From a virus (lineage: Duplodnaviria > Caudoviricetes): DNA of 64,000 nucleotides. The position numbers were made by a program, and so were the translations under genes. The notes beneath the pieces are model-generated. The model was not told the DNA's origin and made no database searches. It was given only the letters and a program-made list of their open reading frames with translations. The stretch covers positions 1,749 through 65,748 of IMG/VR virus record IMGVR_UViG_3300045970_000924; one strand, given 5' to 3'. Positions 2,893 to 63,028 of the stretch are shown here, piece after piece. Positions within the stretch are counted from its first letter, which is position 1. The number at the start of each line of letters is the position of its first letter.

Positions 2893-4509
2893 ATGGCCAG
2901 CAGCCCCAAGCCTGCTGGCGCCGGCGAGAAGCTCAAGCTCCGTCTCGACTCGTTCGCCAACAGCCTCACCGGCCTCGGGCTCGCCCGGGACAAGCGCCAG
3001 GGCGGCTACGCTCGCGTCGTCACGGTCGACTACCAGGAGGCGACGGATCTCTACCGCGGCAACGACATGGCCGCGCGCATCGTCGATGCCCTCCCCGAGA
3101 ACTGTCTGCGCGAGGGGTTCGGTGTCTCCATCGAGGGCGACGACGGCCACCAGTTCGCCGAGGCGGTGCAGGCCGCGCTCGAGACGCTGAACGCCGAAGA
3201 GGCGCTCCTGCAGGCCCACAAGTGGAGCCGCGCCTACGGCGGTGCCGGAGTCTTCATCGGCGCCAACGACGGCCAGACGGCCGACCTTCCGCTGGACCTG
3301 AAGCGGGTCAAGAGCGTCGACTTCCTCCTGCCATTCGACACGCTCGAGTTGGTGCCCAACACGTTCTACTGGGACCCGAACCTCGGCGCGAAGTACGGCC
3401 AGCCGGAGACCTACCGCCTCAACCGCTTTGGCTCGATCGGCCTGATGCCCTCGGGTGTCGGCACCCCGCAGATGGGGGCAGGCGCTCTCTCGGCGGTCTC
3501 GGGCAACCCGGCCATCTTGGGCGGCCTGCCGACGATCGCGGCCAGCACCAACTGGCAGTGGCTCCCGGTGGTGCACGAGAGCCGGATCATCCGGTTCGAG
3601 GGCAACTTCACCAACCGCCTCAGCCTGCGCCAGAACCGCTACTGGCCGGACTCGGTGTTCGTTCGCTGCGGCGAGGTGCTGCGAGACTTCGGCCTCTCGT
3701 GGAGCTCGGCCGCGCTGCTCATCCAGGACTTCGTGCAGCAGGTCTACAAGCTGCCTGGGTTCGCGGACATGCTCGCGCAGCAGGGTCCGACGGCGTACGT
3801 CACCGCGGCGTCGATGATCGAGCAGGGCAGGAGCCTGATCCACGCGCTGGTCCTCGACAAGGACGACGAGCTGATCCGGACGCCGCAGCCAGTCACGGGA
3901 CTTCCGGACCTGCTGATCCAGATGGCCAAGCGGCTCGCCGCGGCGGCCGATATGCCGGTGTCGCTCCTCTTCGGCGAGGCTCCGGCGGGCCTCAACGCGA
4001 CTGGAGACACGGACGCGAAGTGGTGGGCGGACAAGTGCCGCGCGGCGCAGCGCAAGAAGCTGAAGCCTGCGATCCGGCGCATCTGCGAGGTGCTCTTCGC
4101 AGCCGCGGAAGGACCCACCAAGGGCAAGCCCATCGGGGGCGACAACTGGGCAGTGACCTTCCCCTCCCTGCTCCAGCTTGACGAGCAGCAGGAGGCGGAC
4201 CTTCGCCAGAAGGTGGCCGCGTCCGACGAGATCTACCTCCGCAACGGGGTGGTCACGCCGGAGGAGGTGGCGATCACCCGGTTCGGCGGCGCCGAGTTCG
4301 ATAGCGGCAAGATCAACCTGGTCGAGACGGACCCGGCCAAGCGCGCGGGGATGGCTGCCGAGGCCGCGGCTGAAGCGGCTGCAGCGGCTGGGGGCGGGAC
4401 CGGCGGAGACGAGCCGGACGGCGATGAAGAGCCGGACGGCGATGAAGAGCCGGACGAGGACGCTGAAGACGAGCCCGACGACGAGGAGGCCGACAAGCCC
4501 GGGAGCTGA
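2893..4509 (+). CDS. Portal protein (DUF1073-type) with acidic C-terminal tail
   Basis: Follows terL; motifs RAYGGA, HESRIIRF, AAAADMPVSLLFGEAPAGLNATGDTD; EPDGDE repeats at the end. Confidence 0.9.
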   Translation: MASSPKPAGAGEKLKLRLDSFANSLTGLGLARDKRQGGYARVVTVDYQEATDLYRGNDMAARIVDALPENCLREGFGVSIEGDDGHQFAEAVQAALETLNAEEALLQAHKWSRAYGGAGVFIGANDGQTADLPLDLKRVKSVDFLLPFDTLELVPNTFYWDPNLGAKYGQPETYRLNRFGSIGLMPSGVGTPQMGAGALSAVSGNPAILGGLPTIAASTNWQWLPVVHESRIIRFEGNFTNRLSLRQNRYWPDSVFVRCGEVLRDFGLSWSSAALLIQDFVQQVYKLPGFADMLAQQGPTAYVTAASMIEQGRSLIHALVLDKDDELIRTPQPVTGLPDLLIQMAKRLAAAADMPVSLLFGEAPAGLNATGDTDAKWWADKCRAAQRKKLKPAIRRICEVLFAAAEGPTKGKPIGGDNWAVTFPSLLQLDEQQEADLRQKVAASDEIYLRNGVVTPEEVAITRFGGAEFDSGKINLVETDPAKRAGMAAEAAAEAAAAAGGGTGGDEPDGDEEPDGDEEPDEDAEDEPDDEEADKPGS

Positions 4510-55258: not shown

Positions 55259-55828
55259 GCGCGCTCTCCGCTCTCGCCTGCGCGCACCTCCGCGCCGCGG
55301 GGATGCTCGACGCTGCAGACCTCGCCGAAGAGCAGGCGTGGGCGCACGCGCTGGAGTGCCCGCCCCGCGAGTCCAACGCCATCGCTCGGCTCGTCGCAAT
55401 CGCTCGCGTGGAGACGCTCTGCACGCATGCCGAGTCCCTCCGCATCCTGGCGGCTGGACTGCTGGAGGTCCCCAATGGTTAGCGAGGCCCTGCTGCAGCG
55501 GCTCACGCTGGTAGCGACCCAGGAGGCCGAGGCAGAGCGCGGCCCGGTGGACTGCCTCGCGGGGCACCAGTCGTTCGGCGTGCCGGGCACCGCCTGCACC
55601 TGCGGGCTCACGCGGCTGCCGCCGAGCACCGCGTATTACTTCAACGCCGTCTTTTTCTGCGGTGTCGAGCGGCGCCGGAAGGCGGGGCTCTGATGGCGTG
55701 CACTCGAACCCTCCGTAGTTCTCAAGTCGCCGCCAGAGGAGAAGCGGCTCTCGCGCGGGGTGCCTCTTTCGGCCGTTCTGAGACCTGCGTCGGCATCCGC
55801 CGCGGGCTCGCGCTGTACGGAGCCCTCC

Positions 55829-56434
55829 ATGCGTAAGCGCTTCCGTGCCTCCGCCATCGCCAAGCCCCGCTCCAAGCGGCGCGCCCGCGGGGCCTACTTC
55901 ACCCCTGATGCGCTGGCCGCCGCGATCTGCCGCTCTCTCGCTGACGAGATCGGCGCGCCTCGCGACGTCCTCGAGCCCGGCTGTGGCGGCGGCGCCTTCT
56001 TGCGCGCCGCCCGCGCGGTGTGGCCCGGCGTGGATCTCGATGGCGTGGATCTCGTGCCGAAGTGCGAAGGGCCGGGCGCCATCTGGCCCGGGAGCATCTT
56101 CGACCTCTGCGAAGGGAAGCTGCGCGCCGAAGACGGCTGGGCGTTGATCGTCGGCAACCCCGACTTCTTGCACGCCGAGAAGATCGTGCGGCACTGCCTC
56201 TCGCTGCTCGCGCCGGGCGGTCACCTGGCCTTCCTTCTTCCGCTCTCGTTTGCAGCGAGCAAGCAGCGTCGGGCGCTATTCGTCACCTATCCCTGCCGGT
56301 ATCAGCAGCCTATCGCGGGCCGCCCGGCGTTCATCGGCAAGACCACCGGCTCCCAGGAGTACGGCCTCTTTGTCTGGAGGCAGGGCTTCAAGGGCCGCGG
56401 GCAGATCCTTCCTCCGCTGGAGTGGAAGCCATGA
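55829..56434 (+). CDS. Amino-(N6A/N4C)-type DNA methyltransferase, variant motif IV NPDF
   Basis: YFTP, VLEPGCGGGAF, IVGNPDF, AFLLPLSF, RPAF...EYGLFVW. Confidence 0.8.
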   Translation: MRKRFRASAIAKPRSKRRARGAYFTPDALAAAICRSLADEIGAPRDVLEPGCGGGAFLRAARAVWPGVDLDGVDLVPKCEGPGAIWPGSIFDLCEGKLRAEDGWALIVGNPDFLHAEKIVRHCLSLLAPGGHLAFLLPLSFAASKQRRALFVTYPCRYQQPIAGRPAFIGKTTGSQEYGLFVWRQGFKGRGQILPPLEWKP

Positions 56435-56805
56435 GCACCAAGAACGCGACGCACTGCAAGCGCGGCCACGAGTGGGCGGTCTACGGGAAGCTCGGGAGCC
56501 AGGGCTACCGGGTCTGCGGGAAGTGCAAGGCCGAAGGGATGAAGCGCTGGCGGTCTGAGCAGGGAGACGACCGCGCGGTGATCCGGGCTCAGGCGAGGAT
56601 GATGCGGATCATCCTTCACGAGTGCGGCTACTCGTGGGCGACCGCTGGGCAGTTCCGAATCGACCTTCGCGAGACGACGATCCATGAGCGCAGCGCTCCG
56701 GCCACTGGAGCAGCTCGACGCGACTTCAACCGCTGCCCGGCAAAGCGCTCCACCACCATCTCGATCGCGGACCACGCGGTCGCTCGCCTTAATGAGGCCG
56801 CCTGA
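56431..56805 (+). CDS. Hypothetical zinc-finger protein
   Basis: THCKRGH...RVCGKC; coupled. Confidence 0.55.
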   Translation: MSTKNATHCKRGHEWAVYGKLGSQGYRVCGKCKAEGMKRWRSEQGDDRAVIRAQARMMRIILHECGYSWATAGQFRIDLRETTIHERSAPATGAARRDFNRCPAKRSTTISIADHAVARLNEAA

Positions 56806-58374
56806 TGGGCCTCCGGTTCGGCAGCGTATGCAGTGGTATCGAGGCCGCCAGCGTGGCCTGGTCTCCGCTTGGATGGGAGGCCGCGTGGCTCGCGGAGATC
56901 GAACCGTTTCCCTCTCGGGTGCTCGCGCACCACTACCCCGAGGTGCCGAATCTCGGCGACATGACCACCATCGCCGCGCGCATCCTCGCGGGTGAGGTGG
57001 AGGCGCCCGACCTGCTCTGCGGCGGCACCCCTTGTCAGTCCTTTTCCGTCGCCGGGCTCCGCAAGGGGCTCGCAGACGAGCGCGGCAACCTCGCGCTCGA
57101 GTTCGTGAGGCTCGCAGATGCCATCGACCAGAAGCGCAGCGACCCAGCTTGGATTCTTTGGGAGAACGTCCCCGGAGTCCTCTCCAGCGCCGAGGGTCGC
57201 GACTTCGGATGCCTCTTGGCGGGCCTGGTCGGAGAGGATGCCCCACTCCTTCCGCCACGGGATGGGTGGACGGACGCGGGTGTGGTTGCTGGACCAACGC
57301 GAGTCGCTGCGTGGCGCATCCTCGATGCCCAATACTTCGGAGTGGCCCAGCGCCGCCGACGTGTCTTTGTGCTCGCTCGCGGAGGTGCTGGAGGTTGGGC
57401 CGCACCTGACGCGCTACTGCCTATCGGCCCGCGCCTGTCTCGGAATCCTCCGACGCGCGCAGAAGCGCGGCAAGGAGCTGCCCGAGGCGCTGCGGAACGC
57501 GCTGGAAGCGGCATCGAGGGGCTAGCGCATTCCCTGCGGGCGCGGGCGAACAGCGCGCACCGCGAGGATGCGGAGACTTACGTCCCTTGCATTTCTCCTG
57601 CGCTCAAGGCGCGCGACTGCAAGGGGCCATCAAGCGACGGCGACGGCGACGGCGCGACGCTCGTCGCTCAGCTCGTCAGCGGCAACCAAGGGGGGGGGGC
57701 AACCGTAGTTGGCTCGGCATCGAAGAGCCGCACCAGACCCTCACTCGCAACCACAAGCCCAACGCCATCGTCGCGCTGCCCGGAGATCGGGGGCGGCTTT
57801 GACGAACCGCTCGCCATCCAGGGCACGATGATCGGGCGCGGCGATACCGCGGGGCCGCAGGGCATGGGCGTGGGCGTGGGCGTGGGCGTGGGCGTTCAGT
57901 TCACACTCACAAAGACGGACGTTCACGCGGTGCTCGCCTTCGACCCACGCCAGGTCACCAGCAAGACCAACCGCAGCAATCCGCAGCCCGGTGACCCTGC
58001 GCCCACGCTTGCGACTACCCCCCCCCCTGATCGGGGGTTTCTTTGACGCTGCGCCTACGGCGTTCCATCTCACGCAAGACCCCATCTCTGAGACGGGGGG
58101 GGGCACGCCTGCGATGTCGGCGGGGAACCGGCAGGGCTGCGCAACGCTCGGAGTGATGCACCCCGGAGGCGGCTTTGACGCCCCTGCGGCGGCGGTCAGG
58201 CGGCTGACTCCCCGCGAGTGCGAGCGCCTTCAGGCGTTCCCCGACGATTACACGCTGATACCCGGCGCTGCGGATGGTCCGCGATACCGGGCGCTCGGCA
58301 ACTCGATGGCGGTGGTGGTTATGGCCTGGATTGGTCGGCGTATCGCTGCGGTCATCGCCTCGGAGGTCAAATGA
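56805..58374 (+). CDS. C5-cytosine DNA methyltransferase with modular TRDs; full length needs a +1 frame change at about 58041-58047
   Basis: Motifs I (SVCSGIEA), IV (GGTPCQSFS), VI (WENVPG) and VIII (QRRRRVF) lie in 56805..58046. Motifs IX/X (RRLTPRECERLQAFPDDYT, RYRALGNS) lie in the +1 frame ending 58374. Confidence 0.9.
57118..57525 (+). CDS. Overlapping +1-frame ORF resembling the M.EcoHK31I beta polypeptide N-terminal region
   Basis: GAGG 5' of ATG; SEWPSAADVSLCSLAEVLE...YCLSARACLGILRRAQKRGKELP; wholly nested in the MTase gene. Confidence 0.7.
   Translation: MPSTRSAATQLGFFGRTSPESSPAPRVATSDASWRAWSERMPHSFRHGMGGRTRVWLLDQRESLRGASSMPNTSEWPSAADVSLCSLAEVLEVGPHLTRYCLSARACLGILRRAQKRGKELPEALRNALEAASRG
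57789..57803 (+). other. prfB-type +1 frameshift cassette 1
   Basis: GGGGG CGG CTT TGA C. Confidence 0.75.
58033..58047 (+). other. prfB-type +1 frameshift cassette 2 (needed in the current allele)
   Basis: GGGGG TTT CTT TGA C; this TGA ends the 56805 ORF, and +1 leads into the motif IX/X frame. Confidence 0.8.
58165..58179 (+). other. prfB-type +1 frameshift cassette 3
   Basis: GGAGG CGG CTT TGA C. Confidence 0.75.
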
Positions 58375-61790: not shown

Positions 61791-62018
61791 GTGAGAGCCC
61801 TCGGGAAGAACACCGCCCGGCGCTGTGAAGAGGGCCAGGGCAAGAGGTGCAGGTGTCGCTGCCGGGGCGCTCGTCATGGGGCCAACCGCGGCGACGTCGC
61901 TGCCCTCGCGCCTTGGGACGTTCATTCGCCGCAGAACCGCGCTGAGCCGGCGCAGCTCGTCCTCTTCGACCGGCCCACCAAGACCCGCACCACGATCAGC
62001 GCCAGCAAGGAGGGATGA
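61791..62018 (+). CDS. Small Cys-rich protein
   Basis: CEEGQGKRCRCRCRGARHG motif. Confidence 0.55.
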   Translation: MRALGKNTARRCEEGQGKRCRCRCRGARHGANRGDVAALAPWDVHSPQNRAEPAQLVLFDRPTKTRTTISASKEG

Positions 62019-63028
62019 CGATGCCCCCGCGAGAGATGTGGCTCAAGCTGGCCGTCGAAGTCGCCGACGACCCTAAGTTGCTCGCCCTGCCCGAGGCCGA
62101 GCGGTGGCTTTGGATCTGCCTGCTCTGCCTCGCCAAGCGGCGCGAGAGCGCGACCCTCACCGGCTACACCGCCAAGATGTTGGTGCAGGTGTTCGCGCTC
62201 ACCATCAAGGTGCCGCGGGCGCAGGCCGCGCTCGAGCACTTCGAGCGGCAGGGGATGGTGCGCCTCTACCCCGACGGCACCATCGAGATCGCGAAGTGGG
62301 AGGAGCGCCAAGCCATCGCTAAGGACTCGCCCGAGGCCGTGCGGGAGCGCCAGCAAGCATGGAGAGCGAGGGAGCGCGCCAAGAAGGAAGAGGCGCAGCG
62401 TAACGGGTCAGACCAAGGGCGGAGTAACGGGTCCGTAACGGGTCCCCTGTCCGTTACGGAGCGTGACGGCGTAACGCAGACGAGACGTAGAGGAGAAGAG
62501 ACGAGAGGAGAAGAGAAGAACACCCTCGCGTCGGCAGCGGCCGAAAGACCGGCCGTGCCGCCGGTCGCCTCGGTGCCCGTCGTCCCGATTGCCGACCTCG
62601 AGGCCGACTGGCCACCCGACTTGGTCAAGCGGGTCCGCGAGGCGGTCACTTCGACCCGCAAGGGCGGCACGATGGCCGAGGGCCCGTGGCGCGCCTTCCT
62701 GCTCTCGGCCAAGCAGTATCCGAAGGCCCAACGCGAGGCGGCGGCGAGCGAGTATCTCGACCGGGCTTACGCCGCAGAGGGCAAGCCCGAGGAGTACCTG
62801 CTCGGGATGATCCGCCGGGGCGCGGGGAAGACCGCGCCGATGCAGCAGCAACTCGGACCGCGGCCAGTCCGCCCAAACGCCCCCGTTCCCGCCAGCACCC
62901 GCGAGGCGCACCTGCTCGACGCCATCGAGGCAGAGCGAAAGAAGCGCGGTGACGCCCTCCCCACCGAACGCGAGACCTACCTGCTCGAGCAGCTCGACGC
63001 CGAGCGCAAGAAGCGAGGTGCAGCATGA
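62015..63028 (+). CDS. Phage replication initiator (replisome organizer type)
   Basis: WLKL...DDPKL...WICLLCLA, I.KWEERQ, RERQQAWR; internal iterons; precedes a DnaC-like gene. Confidence 0.8.
   Translation: MTMPPREMWLKLAVEVADDPKLLALPEAERWLWICLLCLAKRRESATLTGYTAKMLVQVFALTIKVPRAQAALEHFERQGMVRLYPDGTIEIAKWEERQAIAKDSPEAVRERQQAWRARERAKKEEAQRNGSDQGRSNGSVTGPLSVTERDGVTQTRRRGEETRGEEKNTLASAAAERPAVPPVASVPVVPIADLEADWPPDLVKRVREAVTSTRKGGTMAEGPWRAFLLSAKQYPKAQREAAASEYLDRAYAAEGKPEEYLLGMIRRGAGKTAPMQQQLGPRPVRPNAPVPASTREAHLLDAIEAERKKRGDALPTERETYLLEQLDAERKKRGAA
62400..62520. repeat. Putative replication origin iterons
   Basis: GTAACGGGTC at 62400, 62424 and 62435; inverted CCGTTAC at 62451; further GTGACG/GTAACG; then a purine-only-rich tract. 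Confidence 0.7.

What the first reader, a model, noticed from the sequence alone, without database searches (positions are those of the whole stretch)
57690..58179. Methyltransferase TRD modules switched by homopolymer tracts, each backed by an RF2-type +1 frameshift cassette that resets the frame
Seen: three homopolymer tracts in the variable region of the C5 MTase (G10 at 57690, C10 at 58018, G9 at 58095). Each is followed by a cassette of SD-like pentamer + 3 nt + CTT TGA C (57789 GGGGG-CGG, 58033 GGGGG-TTT, 58165 GGAGG-CGG). Known: this is the prfB +1 frameshift signal (AGGGGG-NNN-CUU-UGA-C). The geometry is the same in all three. One tract length reads through the cassette as GG(G/F)FD. 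One base longer gives a frame with no stop until the cassette TGA, where +1 rejoins the main frame. One base shorter hits an early stop. Module 1: G10 gives a low-complexity S/T/P linker, G11 gives a TRD-like NRSWLGIEEPHQTLTRNHKPNAIV plus shift, G9 stops. Module 2: C9 reads through, C10 (current) needs the shift, C11 or C8 stops. Module 3: G9 reads the TRD AFHLTQDPIS...GCATLGV, G10 scrambles its second half and is rescued, G8 stops. Inference: slipped-strand phase variation swaps individual specificity modules while full-length enzyme is still made, giving combinatorial methylation patterns (anti-restriction bet-hedging). I know of no description of this design.
Basis: partly seen in the sequence, partly recalled or inferred. 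Interest (0 to 1): 0.95.

Follow-up and report, generated by a model that had tools for sequence, protein, structure and literature searches.

The report
Phage methylase with prfB-type frameshift reset
A phage DNA methyltransferase gene carries slippage-prone base runs, each followed by a copy of the signal bacteria use to shift reading frame in the release factor 2 gene, so the enzyme may still be made when a run changes length.

Summary
G10, C10 and G9 are the only homopolymers of 7 or more in 64 kb. Three GGRGG-N3-CTTTGAC motifs are found against 0.02 expected.

I first read the cassettes as plain codons of a repeated GGGFD peptide in a slippage-broken gene. Comparative data overturned that for cassette 2 (58033-58047).
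- Its 15-mer recurs in about nine lineages of the same methylase family.
- In six lineages found without reference to the cassette, 0 of 5 cassette codons vary, against 16 of 17 neighbouring conserved codons.
- Eight of nine lineages have a simple repeat 5-106 nt upstream, and its length differs between near-identical contigs.
- In six lineages, including the window, the ORF carrying the catalytic N-domain ends on the cassette TGA. The +1 frame then runs on, to motifs IX-X in five of the six.
- The same 15-mer is the genuine prfB shift site in sampled bacteria.

Cassette 1 is not shared (0 of 77) and cassette 3 was not searched. No frameshifting, tract heterogeneity in this phage, or methylation specificity was measured. 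The scan had not noted this on other DNA.

The parts
56805..58046 (+). ORF1 (frame 0, 413 aa) of the C5 DNA methyltransferase. It holds the catalytic N-domain (motif names PCQ, ENV, QRRRR are recalled nomenclature) and the variable region, and it ends on the TGA of cassette 2.
   Evidence: ORF. (PF00145, residues 4-134, E 2.5e-28). (phrog_116). (homologues match frame 0 up to 58013).
58045..58374 (+). Continuation in the +1 frame from the GAC of cassette 2 to the stop. It carries motifs IX-X (RRLTPRECERLQ..., GNS).
   Evidence: PF00145 profile positions 268-322, E 2.4e-10. (homologues match frame +1 from 58054). (GC3 is highest in frame +1).
57690..57699 (+). G10 tract of unit 1. As it stands the ORF reads on in frame 0 and scrambles the next 29 codons.
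57700..57785 (+). Segment whose native frame is frame 2 (GNRSWLGIEEPHQTLTRNHKPNAIV). It would be read in that frame with one more G, and that frame ends on the cassette-1 TGA.
   Evidence: GC3 0.83 in frame 2 against 0.66 and 0.46. (weak likeness, best E 0.028, to a GERTGFGIGEP...TLTKGH module found in 3 of 150 homologues).
57789..57803 (+). Cassette 1, GGGGG-CGG-CTTTGAC. It is read in frame as GGGFD in the present allele.
   Evidence: Not shared by other methylases: 0 of 77 IMG/VR hits.
57860..57895 (+). In-frame hexamer repeat (GGGCGT)x6 encoding GVGVGV. Homologues have a shorter DGVGVQ at this place.
   Evidence: The Logan contigs break here.
58018..58027 (+). C10 tract of unit 2, 5 nt upstream of cassette 2. 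C9 would join ORF1 and the continuation into one ORF, 56805-58374.
   Evidence: A direct repeat at 57992/58044 is spaced 52 nt, which is 51+1.
58033..58047 (+). Cassette 2, GGGGG-TTT-CTT-TGA-C. It is the family-conserved, prfB-identical +1 shift site, and its TGA (58044-58046) ends ORF1.
58095..58103 (+). G9 tract of unit 3. It is in frame as it stands (ETGGGT).
58165..58179 (+). Cassette 3, GGAGG-CGG-CTTTGAC. It is read in frame as GGGFD in the present allele.
   Evidence: It was not searched for elsewhere.

Best explanation
The gene is an orphan phage C5 DNA methyltransferase of a large mosaic family. Its variable region holds recoding units. Each unit has a slippage-prone simple repeat followed by a prfB-type +1 ribosomal frameshift cassette: an SD-like GGGGG, 3 nt, then CTT TGA C.

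Inferred mechanism, by repeat length:
- At the in-frame length, the cassette is read as plain codons (GGFFD or GGGFD).
- With one base more, ribosomes read the stretch between repeat and cassette in the wrong frame and reach the cassette TGA. There the peptidyl-tRNA-Leu slips from CTT to TTT, as in prfB. The frame is reset and the catalytic motifs IX-X are still made. The amount should depend on shift efficiency and host RF2.
- With one base fewer, an early stop truncates the enzyme.

In this window unit 2 (C10 plus cassette 2) is in the state that needs the shift, and units 1 and 3 are read through.

Shown here: the sequence anatomy, the family-wide conservation of cassette 2 at synonymous sites, its pairing with length-variable repeats, the ORF geometry, and the identity with genuine prfB sites. 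Inferred: that ribosomes shift here, that the repeats vary in this phage, and any effect on methylation.
For: 1. All prfB elements are present: an SD-like run approaching AGGGGG, 3 nt, CTTT, TGA, then C (passages of PMC12421855; window sequence).
2. The exact 15-mer has 63 hits in IMG/VR. Ten are in loci with N- or C-domain homology to this methylase. An eleventh (L287) has the same module peptide. A metagenome homologue (L181) also has it.
3. A search on the upstream module peptide that ignores the cassette found 12 loci in 8 lineages. Six lineages have GGFFD, and all six use the same 15 nt. The other two have other peptides, no repeat, and a single ORF.
4. In those six lineages, 16 of 17 conserved-residue codon columns upstream use more than one codon, against 0 of 5 cassette columns. 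My hand calculation of the hypergeometric probability is 6/26334, about 2e-4.
5. A simple repeat lies 5-106 nt upstream in 8 of 9 lineages: C10, G7-G10 or (AG)5.
6. Five near-identical contigs differ by G7/G10 at one tract and G9/G7 at another, with only 2 other differences in 580 nt.
7. In 6 of 9 lineages (window, L263, L270, L296, L312, L297) the ORF holding the N-domain ends exactly on the cassette TGA. The +1 frame runs on, reaching motifs IX-X in 5 of those 6.
8. In 9 of 9 loci the frame reached by one extra base is open from the repeat to the cassette TGA (5-39 codons). The other shifted frame stops within 0-16 codons in 8 of 9.
9. In 401 sampled genomes the 15-mer occurs in 7. None of the 7 loci is a methylase. 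Five look like the prfB shift site. Pfam PCRF plus RF-1 domains in the +1 frame confirm this for 3. The other two (L403, L405) rest on the unpublished genomes G042 and G299.
10. No start codon lies near the cassette in the downstream frame, so re-initiation is not an obvious alternative (sequence).
Against: No frameshifting was measured.

Cassette 2 also reads as ordinary codons. Two lineages (L291, L181) are single in-frame ORFs, and L181 has no repeat.

CTTTGAC alone arises often from G-F-D codons in this family. Ten homologues spell it in EGFDAS with no SD-like run. GFD codons vary overall, TTC 144 against TTT 49.

Cassette 1's 15-mer is in no other methylase (0 of 77), and cassette 3 was not searched.

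Homologues L022, L037 and L038 have a G8 tract in the one-extra-base state followed by IGGGFD coded GGC TTC GAT. That gives no TGA and no rescue.

Among 62 loci with the GDECQNLV module, only L297 has the cassette, and 4 others have a G/C tract of 7 or more without it.

In the L268/L279 lineage a second tract is out of frame in both alleles, so those copies look switched off whatever the cassette does.

The unbiased codon sample is small, at six related lineages.

No close relative of this phage and no raw reads were available, so tract variation in this phage is unshown.
Confidence: 0.6

Rival explanations
1. This is ordinary slippage-prone repeats in a dispensable phage methylase, either phase-variable ON/OFF or decaying. 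The cassettes are only codons of a repeated GGFFD/GGGFD peptide. The C10 allele is simply off, and no ribosomal shift of any consequence occurs.
For: The gene reads as one ORF with C9. G/C tracts of 8 or more recur in the variable region of homologues: 13 inside 345,813 nt of methylase ORF, against 10 G/C tracts in the rest of 1,245,799 nt. ON and OFF lengths occur at the same site in Pasteurellaceae, G8 in L154 and L156 against G9 in L150. L022, L037 and L038 are shifted with no cassette. CTTTGAC arises from GFD codons elsewhere. Cassette 1 is unique to this window.
Against: It does not explain why the five cassette-2 codons, which include the rare GGT and TTT, are invariant while 16 of 17 neighbouring conserved codons vary. 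TTT is 18 of 305 Phe codons in the window's likely genes. Only 6 of 33 A/T-ending codons are shared between the window and L181 in the N-domain. It does not explain why the N-domain ORF ends on that TGA in 6 of 9 lineages. It does not explain why the sequence equals genuine prfB sites.
Confidence: 0.2
2. This is a constitutive programmed +1 frameshift, as in prfB. The shifted arrangement is the standard genotype and tunes methylase output to host RF2. The upstream repeats are incidental.
For: Six of 9 lineages are in the shifted arrangement and only 2 are in frame. The cassette is identical to prfB sites. In the window the tract sits 5 nt from the cassette, so only about 5 residues differ between the two routes.
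Against: The module between repeat and cassette varies at the third codon position of the cassette's own frame. So in-frame reading has been under selection. Repeats accompany the cassette in 8 of 9 lineages, and their lengths differ between near-identical contigs.
Confidence: 0.1
3. Frames are restored at the RNA level by transcriptional slippage on the long G or C runs. The cassette TGA only ends unslipped messages.
For: Runs of 9-10 identical bases are present. Slippage and frameshifting are known to substitute for each other in some genes (passage of PMC3711429).
Against: The passages I read name runs of A or T as the usual slippage motif. The (AG)5 repeats in L270 and L296 do not fit. A plain stop would not need the SD-like run, the spacing and the following C to be conserved.
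Confidence: 0.05
4. The C10 length is a sequencing error. The true allele would be C9 and the gene intact.
For: Homopolymers of 10 are error-prone. Both assemblies come from the same reads.
Against: Two assemblers agree at depth about 13 with no differences. The same ORF geometry recurs in five other lineages from other samples, including an (AG)5 case.
Confidence: 0.05

Closest known systems
prfB (release factor 2) autoregulatory +1 programmed frameshift
   Same: The signal is the same: an SD-like GGGGG, a 3-nt spacer, CTT TGA C, with the functional remainder in the +1 frame. Cassette 2 is letter for letter the prfB site of some sampled bacteria (elements as in passages of PMC12421855).
   Different: The gene is a phage DNA methyltransferase, not a release factor. 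The site lies about 410 codons into the gene, not at codon 26 or so. It is used only in one state of an upstream repeat, and it is read as plain codons in the in-frame state. There is no autoregulatory loop, although RF2 dependence would be expected.
Phase-variable DNA methyltransferases (phasevarions: type III mod genes with poly-G/C or tetranucleotide repeats)
   Same: There are simple repeats inside a methylase ORF, and their length sets the reading frame (a passage of PMC3711429 cites them). Tract-length differences between near-identical relatives were seen.
   Different: This is an orphan C5 methylase of a phage. It has several tracts in one gene. One of the two off-frame states is apparently rescued by a downstream frameshift cassette, which would give three states rather than ON/OFF.
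Compensatory frameshifting after a 'savior' indel (herpes thymidine kinase G-run)
   Same: An indel in a G-run is partly compensated at translation, so that some full-length protein is made (passage of PMC5009743).
   Different: There the low-level shift occurs on the run itself and is adventitious. Here a separate, conserved, high-efficiency-type cassette lies downstream.
Multispecific C5 methyltransferases of Bacillus phages (SPbeta, phi3T, SPR) with tandem target-recognising domains (recalled, not checked here)
   Same: Both are phage C5 methylases with an enlarged, mosaic variable region between motifs VIII and IX. Homologues range from 245 to 753 aa and share shuffled mini-modules.
   Different: No sequence relation to those enzymes and no specificity of any module was tested. 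Those enzymes have no repeats or recoding, as far as I recall.
Listeria phage PSA +1 frameshifting at a proline codon next to a stop
   Same: It is a +1 shift at a 'shifty stop' in a phage gene (passage of PMC5009743).
   Different: It uses a different shift codon, has no SD-like stimulator, and makes a second structural product rather than restoring an enzyme.

Membership tests
prfB-type +1 ribosomal frameshift site | A purine-rich SD-like run (approaching AGGGGG) three nucleotides upstream of the shift codon | tested here: met
   All three cassettes have GGGGG or GGAGG followed by 3 nt. Definition taken from passages of PMC12421855.
prfB-type +1 ribosomal frameshift site | A CTT codon followed by an in-frame TGA, then C | tested here: met
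   Cassette 2: ORF 56805-58046 ends CTT TGA, followed by C. Cassettes 1 and 3 have the letters, but in the present allele they are read in the GGGFD frame.
prfB-type +1 ribosomal frameshift site | The +1 frame carries the functional remainder of the protein | tested here: met
   PF00145 C-terminal motifs lie in the +1 frame, and homologue matches switch to +1 at 58054.
prfB-type +1 ribosomal frameshift site | The site is conserved among homologues, synonymous positions included | tested here: met
   Cassette 2: 6 of 6 lineages with GGFFD use the same 15 nt. 0 of 5 cassette codon columns vary, against 16 of 17 neighbouring columns. Cassette 1 is not met (0 of 77). Cassette 3 was not tested.
prfB-type +1 ribosomal frameshift site | Measured frameshifting that depends on the SD-like run, the stop and RF2 | not testable with these tools
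   This needs a reporter assay or mass spectrometry.
prfB gene itself | It encodes release factor 2 (PCRF and RF-1 domains) | tested here: not met
   The gene is a C5 methylase. Genuine prfB loci with the same 15-mer do show PCRF plus RF-1. So it works like prfB's site but is not a member of prfB.
Simple-repeat contingency locus (phase variation) | A repeat inside the ORF, over-represented against background | tested here: met
   There are three runs of 9-10 within 414 nt, and none of 7 or more elsewhere in 64 kb.
Simple-repeat contingency locus (phase variation) | Repeat length varies among molecules or strains | tested here: inconclusive
   For the window only contigs were available, and both assemblies agree. 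No close relative was found. It is met in relatives: G7/G10 and G9/G7 between near-identical contigs, and G8 against G9 at one site in Pasteurellaceae.
Simple-repeat contingency locus (phase variation) | A length change switches the reading frame, with consequences for the product | tested here: met
   Shown by translation of all frames.
Multispecific phage C5 methyltransferase with tandem target-recognising domains | Several modules in the variable region, each conferring a target specificity | not testable with these tools
   Mosaic mini-modules are seen and ORFs range from 245 to 753 aa. No specificity data exist.

The most novel reading that the evidence does not exclude
Phage C5 methylases carry a portable 'repeat - module - frame reset' recoding unit built from a copy of the host prfB shift signal. 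Slippage in the repeat drops or restores one recognition module while the prfB-type cassette keeps the catalytic C-terminus in frame. Several such units in one gene, three in this window, would give a combinatorial set of methylation specificities. The output of shifted alleles would be tied to host RF2 activity. This would be the first use of the RF2 frameshift signal outside prfB, and a new three-state logic for contingency loci.
Probability: 0.22. Interest if true: 0.95.

Novelty: new variant of a known kind. Interest (0 to 1): 0.82.

Why it matters
The RF2 shift signal is the textbook bacterial +1 frameshift. In the review and survey passages I read it is described only for prfB. A second, independent and conserved use in phage methylases would show that the signal is portable and has been co-opted.

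Coupling it to a slippage-prone repeat would give a fail-safe contingency locus. One of the two out-of-frame states would still yield enzyme, possibly with a changed variable region, at a level set by host termination capacity.

In practice, such genes are called as two ORFs or as pseudogenes in metagenomes. Recognising the unit would change how 'broken' phage methylases are annotated. It also gives directly testable constructs for recoding and anti-restriction studies.

Tried and rejected
First working reading, held up: the cassettes are only codons of a repeated peptide in a slippage-broken or decaying gene, and the prfB likeness is accidental. I dropped this as the main reading. It is kept as the main rival.

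Searches for close relatives of this phage, to compare tract lengths, found nothing useful.
- The N-domain query gave at most 75% identity in IMG/VR, 73% in GTDB genomes and 72% in metagenome contigs.
- The neighbouring gene gave no relative.

The longer pattern with the GATC prefix gave 17 IMG/VR loci, none a methylase. The module peptide gave no match in cultured phage records.

Run X2 gave only short pieces below 95% likeness, which is no evidence either way.

A profile for the frame-2 module could not be built, because only 3 examples exist among 240 loci.

Literature searches and passages of PMC12421855, PMC5009743 and PMC3711429 showed no description of a prfB-type cassette in a methylase or paired with a repeat. 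These searches cover only the held library. I read passages, not whole texts, and supplements were not opened.

The caps on scripts (40 of 40) and on viral scans (8 of 8) were reached. For that reason cassette 3 was not searched and no larger unbiased sample was drawn.
Full report
WHAT IS THERE. The window is part of a 65.7-kb IMG/VR virus record with 69% G+C. At 56805 starts a C5 DNA methyltransferase gene. ORF1 (56805-58046, 413 aa) matches PF00145 over its N-terminal half. The +1 frame from about 58030 to 58374 matches the C-terminal end of the same profile. The gene belongs to phrog_116 and lies beside a second methylase and a replisome-organiser gene.

- They are the only homopolymers of 7 or more in 64 kb.
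- GGRGG-N3-CTTTGAC occurs 3 times against 0.02 expected.
- Logan contigs of the probable source run give the same tract lengths, with no difference, at depth about 13. These contigs come from the same reads and cannot show minority lengths.

THE FAMILY AND THE FRAMES. Relatives are plentiful but distant. The best N-domain identities are 75% in IMG/VR, 73% in species genomes and 72% in metagenome contigs. In 150 complete homologous ORFs (245-753 aa) the N-domain, a mosaic variable region and motifs IX-X lie in one frame. Laid on the window, the homologues follow frame 0 to 58013 and frame +1 from 58054. So a single extra C in the C10 tract separates the two halves.

A GC3 frame plot agrees with this. 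It adds that 57700-57785, just after G10, has its native frame in frame 2 (0.83 against 0.66 and 0.46). There is weak likeness there to a module seen in three homologues.

MY FIRST READING, AND WHY I LEFT IT. CTTTGAC is what GGC TTT GAC (G-F-D) spells one base out of frame.
- G-F-D is common in the family: 193 occurrences in 132 of 240 loci, TTC 144 against TTT 49.
- Ten of those occurrences spell CTTTGAC with no SD-like run.
- Poly-G tracts of 8-9 recur in the variable region of homologues, 13 inside methylase ORFs.
- There is a clear ON/OFF pair in Pasteurellaceae, G8 in L154 and L156 against G9 in L150.
- One lineage is shifted at a G8 with no rescuing stop (L022, L037, L038).

That looked like ordinary contingency tracts plus coincidence.

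THE TURN. Scanning all frames of the homologous loci for the peptide showed that L181, an intact homologue of 71% G+C, encodes GGFFD with the very 15 nt of cassette 2. Elsewhere the window and L181 share only 6 of 33 A/T-ending codons at identical residues.

The exact 15-mer has 63 hits in IMG/VR. Ten lie in loci with homology to this methylase, and an eleventh has the same module peptide.

To remove the bias of searching with the cassette itself, I searched for the upstream module peptide with fully degenerate codons. That gave 12 loci in 8 lineages.
- Six lineages have GGFFD, all with identical codons.
- Two lineages have other peptides there, no repeat, and a single ORF.
- Across the six, 16 of 17 conserved-residue columns upstream use more than one codon, always at the third position of the cassette's frame. 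None of the 5 cassette columns varies. My hand calculation of the hypergeometric probability is 6/26334.

PAIRING WITH REPEATS, AND ORF GEOMETRY. In 8 of 9 lineages a simple repeat lies 5-106 nt upstream of the cassette: C10, G7 to G10, or (AG)5. L181 has none.

Five near-identical contigs from different samples fall into two alleles. They differ by G7/G10 at one tract and G9/G7 at another, and by 2 substitutions in 580 nt.

In the window, L263, L270, L296, L312 and L297 the ORF that holds the N-domain ends exactly on the cassette TGA. The +1 frame runs on, holding motifs IX-X in 5 of the 6. L291 (G8) and L181 are single ORFs.

In 9 of 9 loci the frame entered by one extra base stays open from the repeat to the cassette TGA (5-39 codons). 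This includes loci of 46-50% G+C. The other shifted frame stops within 0-16 codons in 8 of 9.

IDENTITY WITH prfB. In 401 sampled genomes of one class the 15-mer occurs in 7, against 2 for a reversed control. None of the 7 loci is a methylase. Five look like the shift site of the release factor 2 gene. For three of them the +1 frame gives PCRF and RF-1 domains. The other two rest on the unpublished genomes G042 and G299.

The elements that define the prfB signal are the SD-like run, the spacing, CTTT, TGA and the following C. Altering any of them lowers shifting (passages of PMC12421855). So cassette 2 is a sequence on which bacterial ribosomes are known to shift.

THE OTHER TWO CASSETTES. Cassette 1's 15-mer has 77 IMG/VR hits, none in a methylase. 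Both carry every prfB element and the same geometry, but only this one sequence supports them.

Unit 1 is a mirror case. The native frame of the segment after G10 is the frame that ends on the cassette TGA. So G11 plus a shift would include that segment, while the present G10 reads a scrambled Ser/Thr/Pro-rich stretch and passes the cassette in frame. A fixed compensating indel near 57783 would explain this equally well.

HOW IT MOST LIKELY WORKS. Each unit has three states set by repeat length.
- In frame: the cassette is read as codons.
- One base more: the segment is scrambled, then the frame is reset at CTT TGA C, with output depending on shift efficiency and RF2.
- One base fewer: an early stop.

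In the window, unit 2 is in the state that needs the shift. The tract lies only 5 nt from the cassette, so the two routes differ by about five residues. This unit can tune amount rather than swap a module. Module swapping is possible at units 1 and 3, and in the sister lineages, where 26-39 codons lie between repeat and cassette. Whether these segments set target specificity is unknown.

LIMITS. Nothing was measured.
- The unbiased sample is six related lineages.
- Among 62 loci with another common module, only one has the cassette, and four have a tract without it.
- Some shifted relatives have no cassette.
- One lineage is out of frame at a second tract in both alleles.

KNOWN OR NEW. Phase-variable methylases and the prfB shift are each textbook. 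Compensatory frameshifting after an indel in a G-run is known for herpes thymidine kinase (passage of PMC5009743). I found no description of the prfB signal in another gene family, or of a repeat backed by a frameshift cassette. This covers five library searches and the passages read. The scan's own notes hold nothing like it on other DNA. I therefore file it as a new variant of known kinds, with 0.6 confidence in the core mechanism.

SIDE RESULT. It is described under Noticed in passing.

Noticed in passing
window 57118-57525 (+), frame +1 inside the methylase N-domain: The nested 135-aa ORF is conserved family-wide. Its C-terminal 49 aa (LSQVLE...ACAGILRRAEKRGK.LP..L..AL) are found in 210 of 240 homologous loci, always at offset +1 to the N-domain. 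There are no stops in either frame in 151 unique sequences. Nucleotide entropy by codon position of the +1 frame is 0.67, 0.59 and 1.13. The +1 frame is open for a median of 93 codons upstream, and for at least 70 codons in 182 of 183 loci. The first ATG lies 87 codons upstream in 78 of 185, made by a rare GAT/AAT/CAT codon in the frame-0 motif LADAID. Database proteins carry the peptide either as small proteins of 88-250 aa or in frame within PF00145 proteins of 400-780 aa. This looks like an overlapping second polypeptide, as recalled for M.EcoHK31I and M.AquI. It has no Pfam, PHROG or PDB sequence match.
   Followed up: partly
window 57860-57895: An in-frame (GGGCGT)x6 repeat encodes GVGVGV where homologues have DGVGVQ. 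Both Logan contigs end at it. It is a fourth slippage-prone repeat that changes length without changing frame.
   Followed up: partly
window 57634-57654: (GCGACG)x3.5 encodes DGDGDG at the place of the family's SEDGTGRG motif.
   Followed up: no
L150, L154, L156 (Pasteurellaceae genomes), position 3711: There is a poly-G tract at the same site of the homologous prophage methylase. G8 gives a full ORF in Haemophilus influenzae and an Aggregatibacter. G9 gives a stop after 6 codons in Aggregatibacter segnis, with the rest of the gene in +1. It looks like a classical ON/OFF tract without a cassette.
   Followed up: partly
L022, L037, L038 (IMG/VR), G8 tract: Two gene variants from three samples share a G8 tract where G7 would be in frame. 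The rest of the gene, to motifs IX-X, lies in +1. The following IGGGFD is coded GGC TTC GAT, so there is no TGA and no prfB-type site.
   Followed up: partly
L268, L315 against L279, L287, L319 (IMG/VR): Near-identical methylase genes from five samples differ almost only in two poly-G tracts (G7/G10 and G9/G7). Neither allele is in frame at either tract.
   Followed up: yes
L453 (IMG/VR): A G10 tract lies 75 nt upstream of the end of the GDECQNLV module, followed by an (AC)n run encoding THTHT. No cassette is present.
   Followed up: no
window 55760-56434 (+): A second DNA methyltransferase gene lies just upstream (Methyltransf_23, phrog_799). A replisome-organiser-like gene lies at 61946-63028.
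   Followed up: no
window 56805-58374: By my reading, the methylase uses TTT for about 6 of 14 Phe codons, against 18 of 305 in the window's other likely genes. Its GC3 is lower, 0.77 in the N-domain. This hints at a different history or at constraints from the overlapping frame.
   Followed up: no
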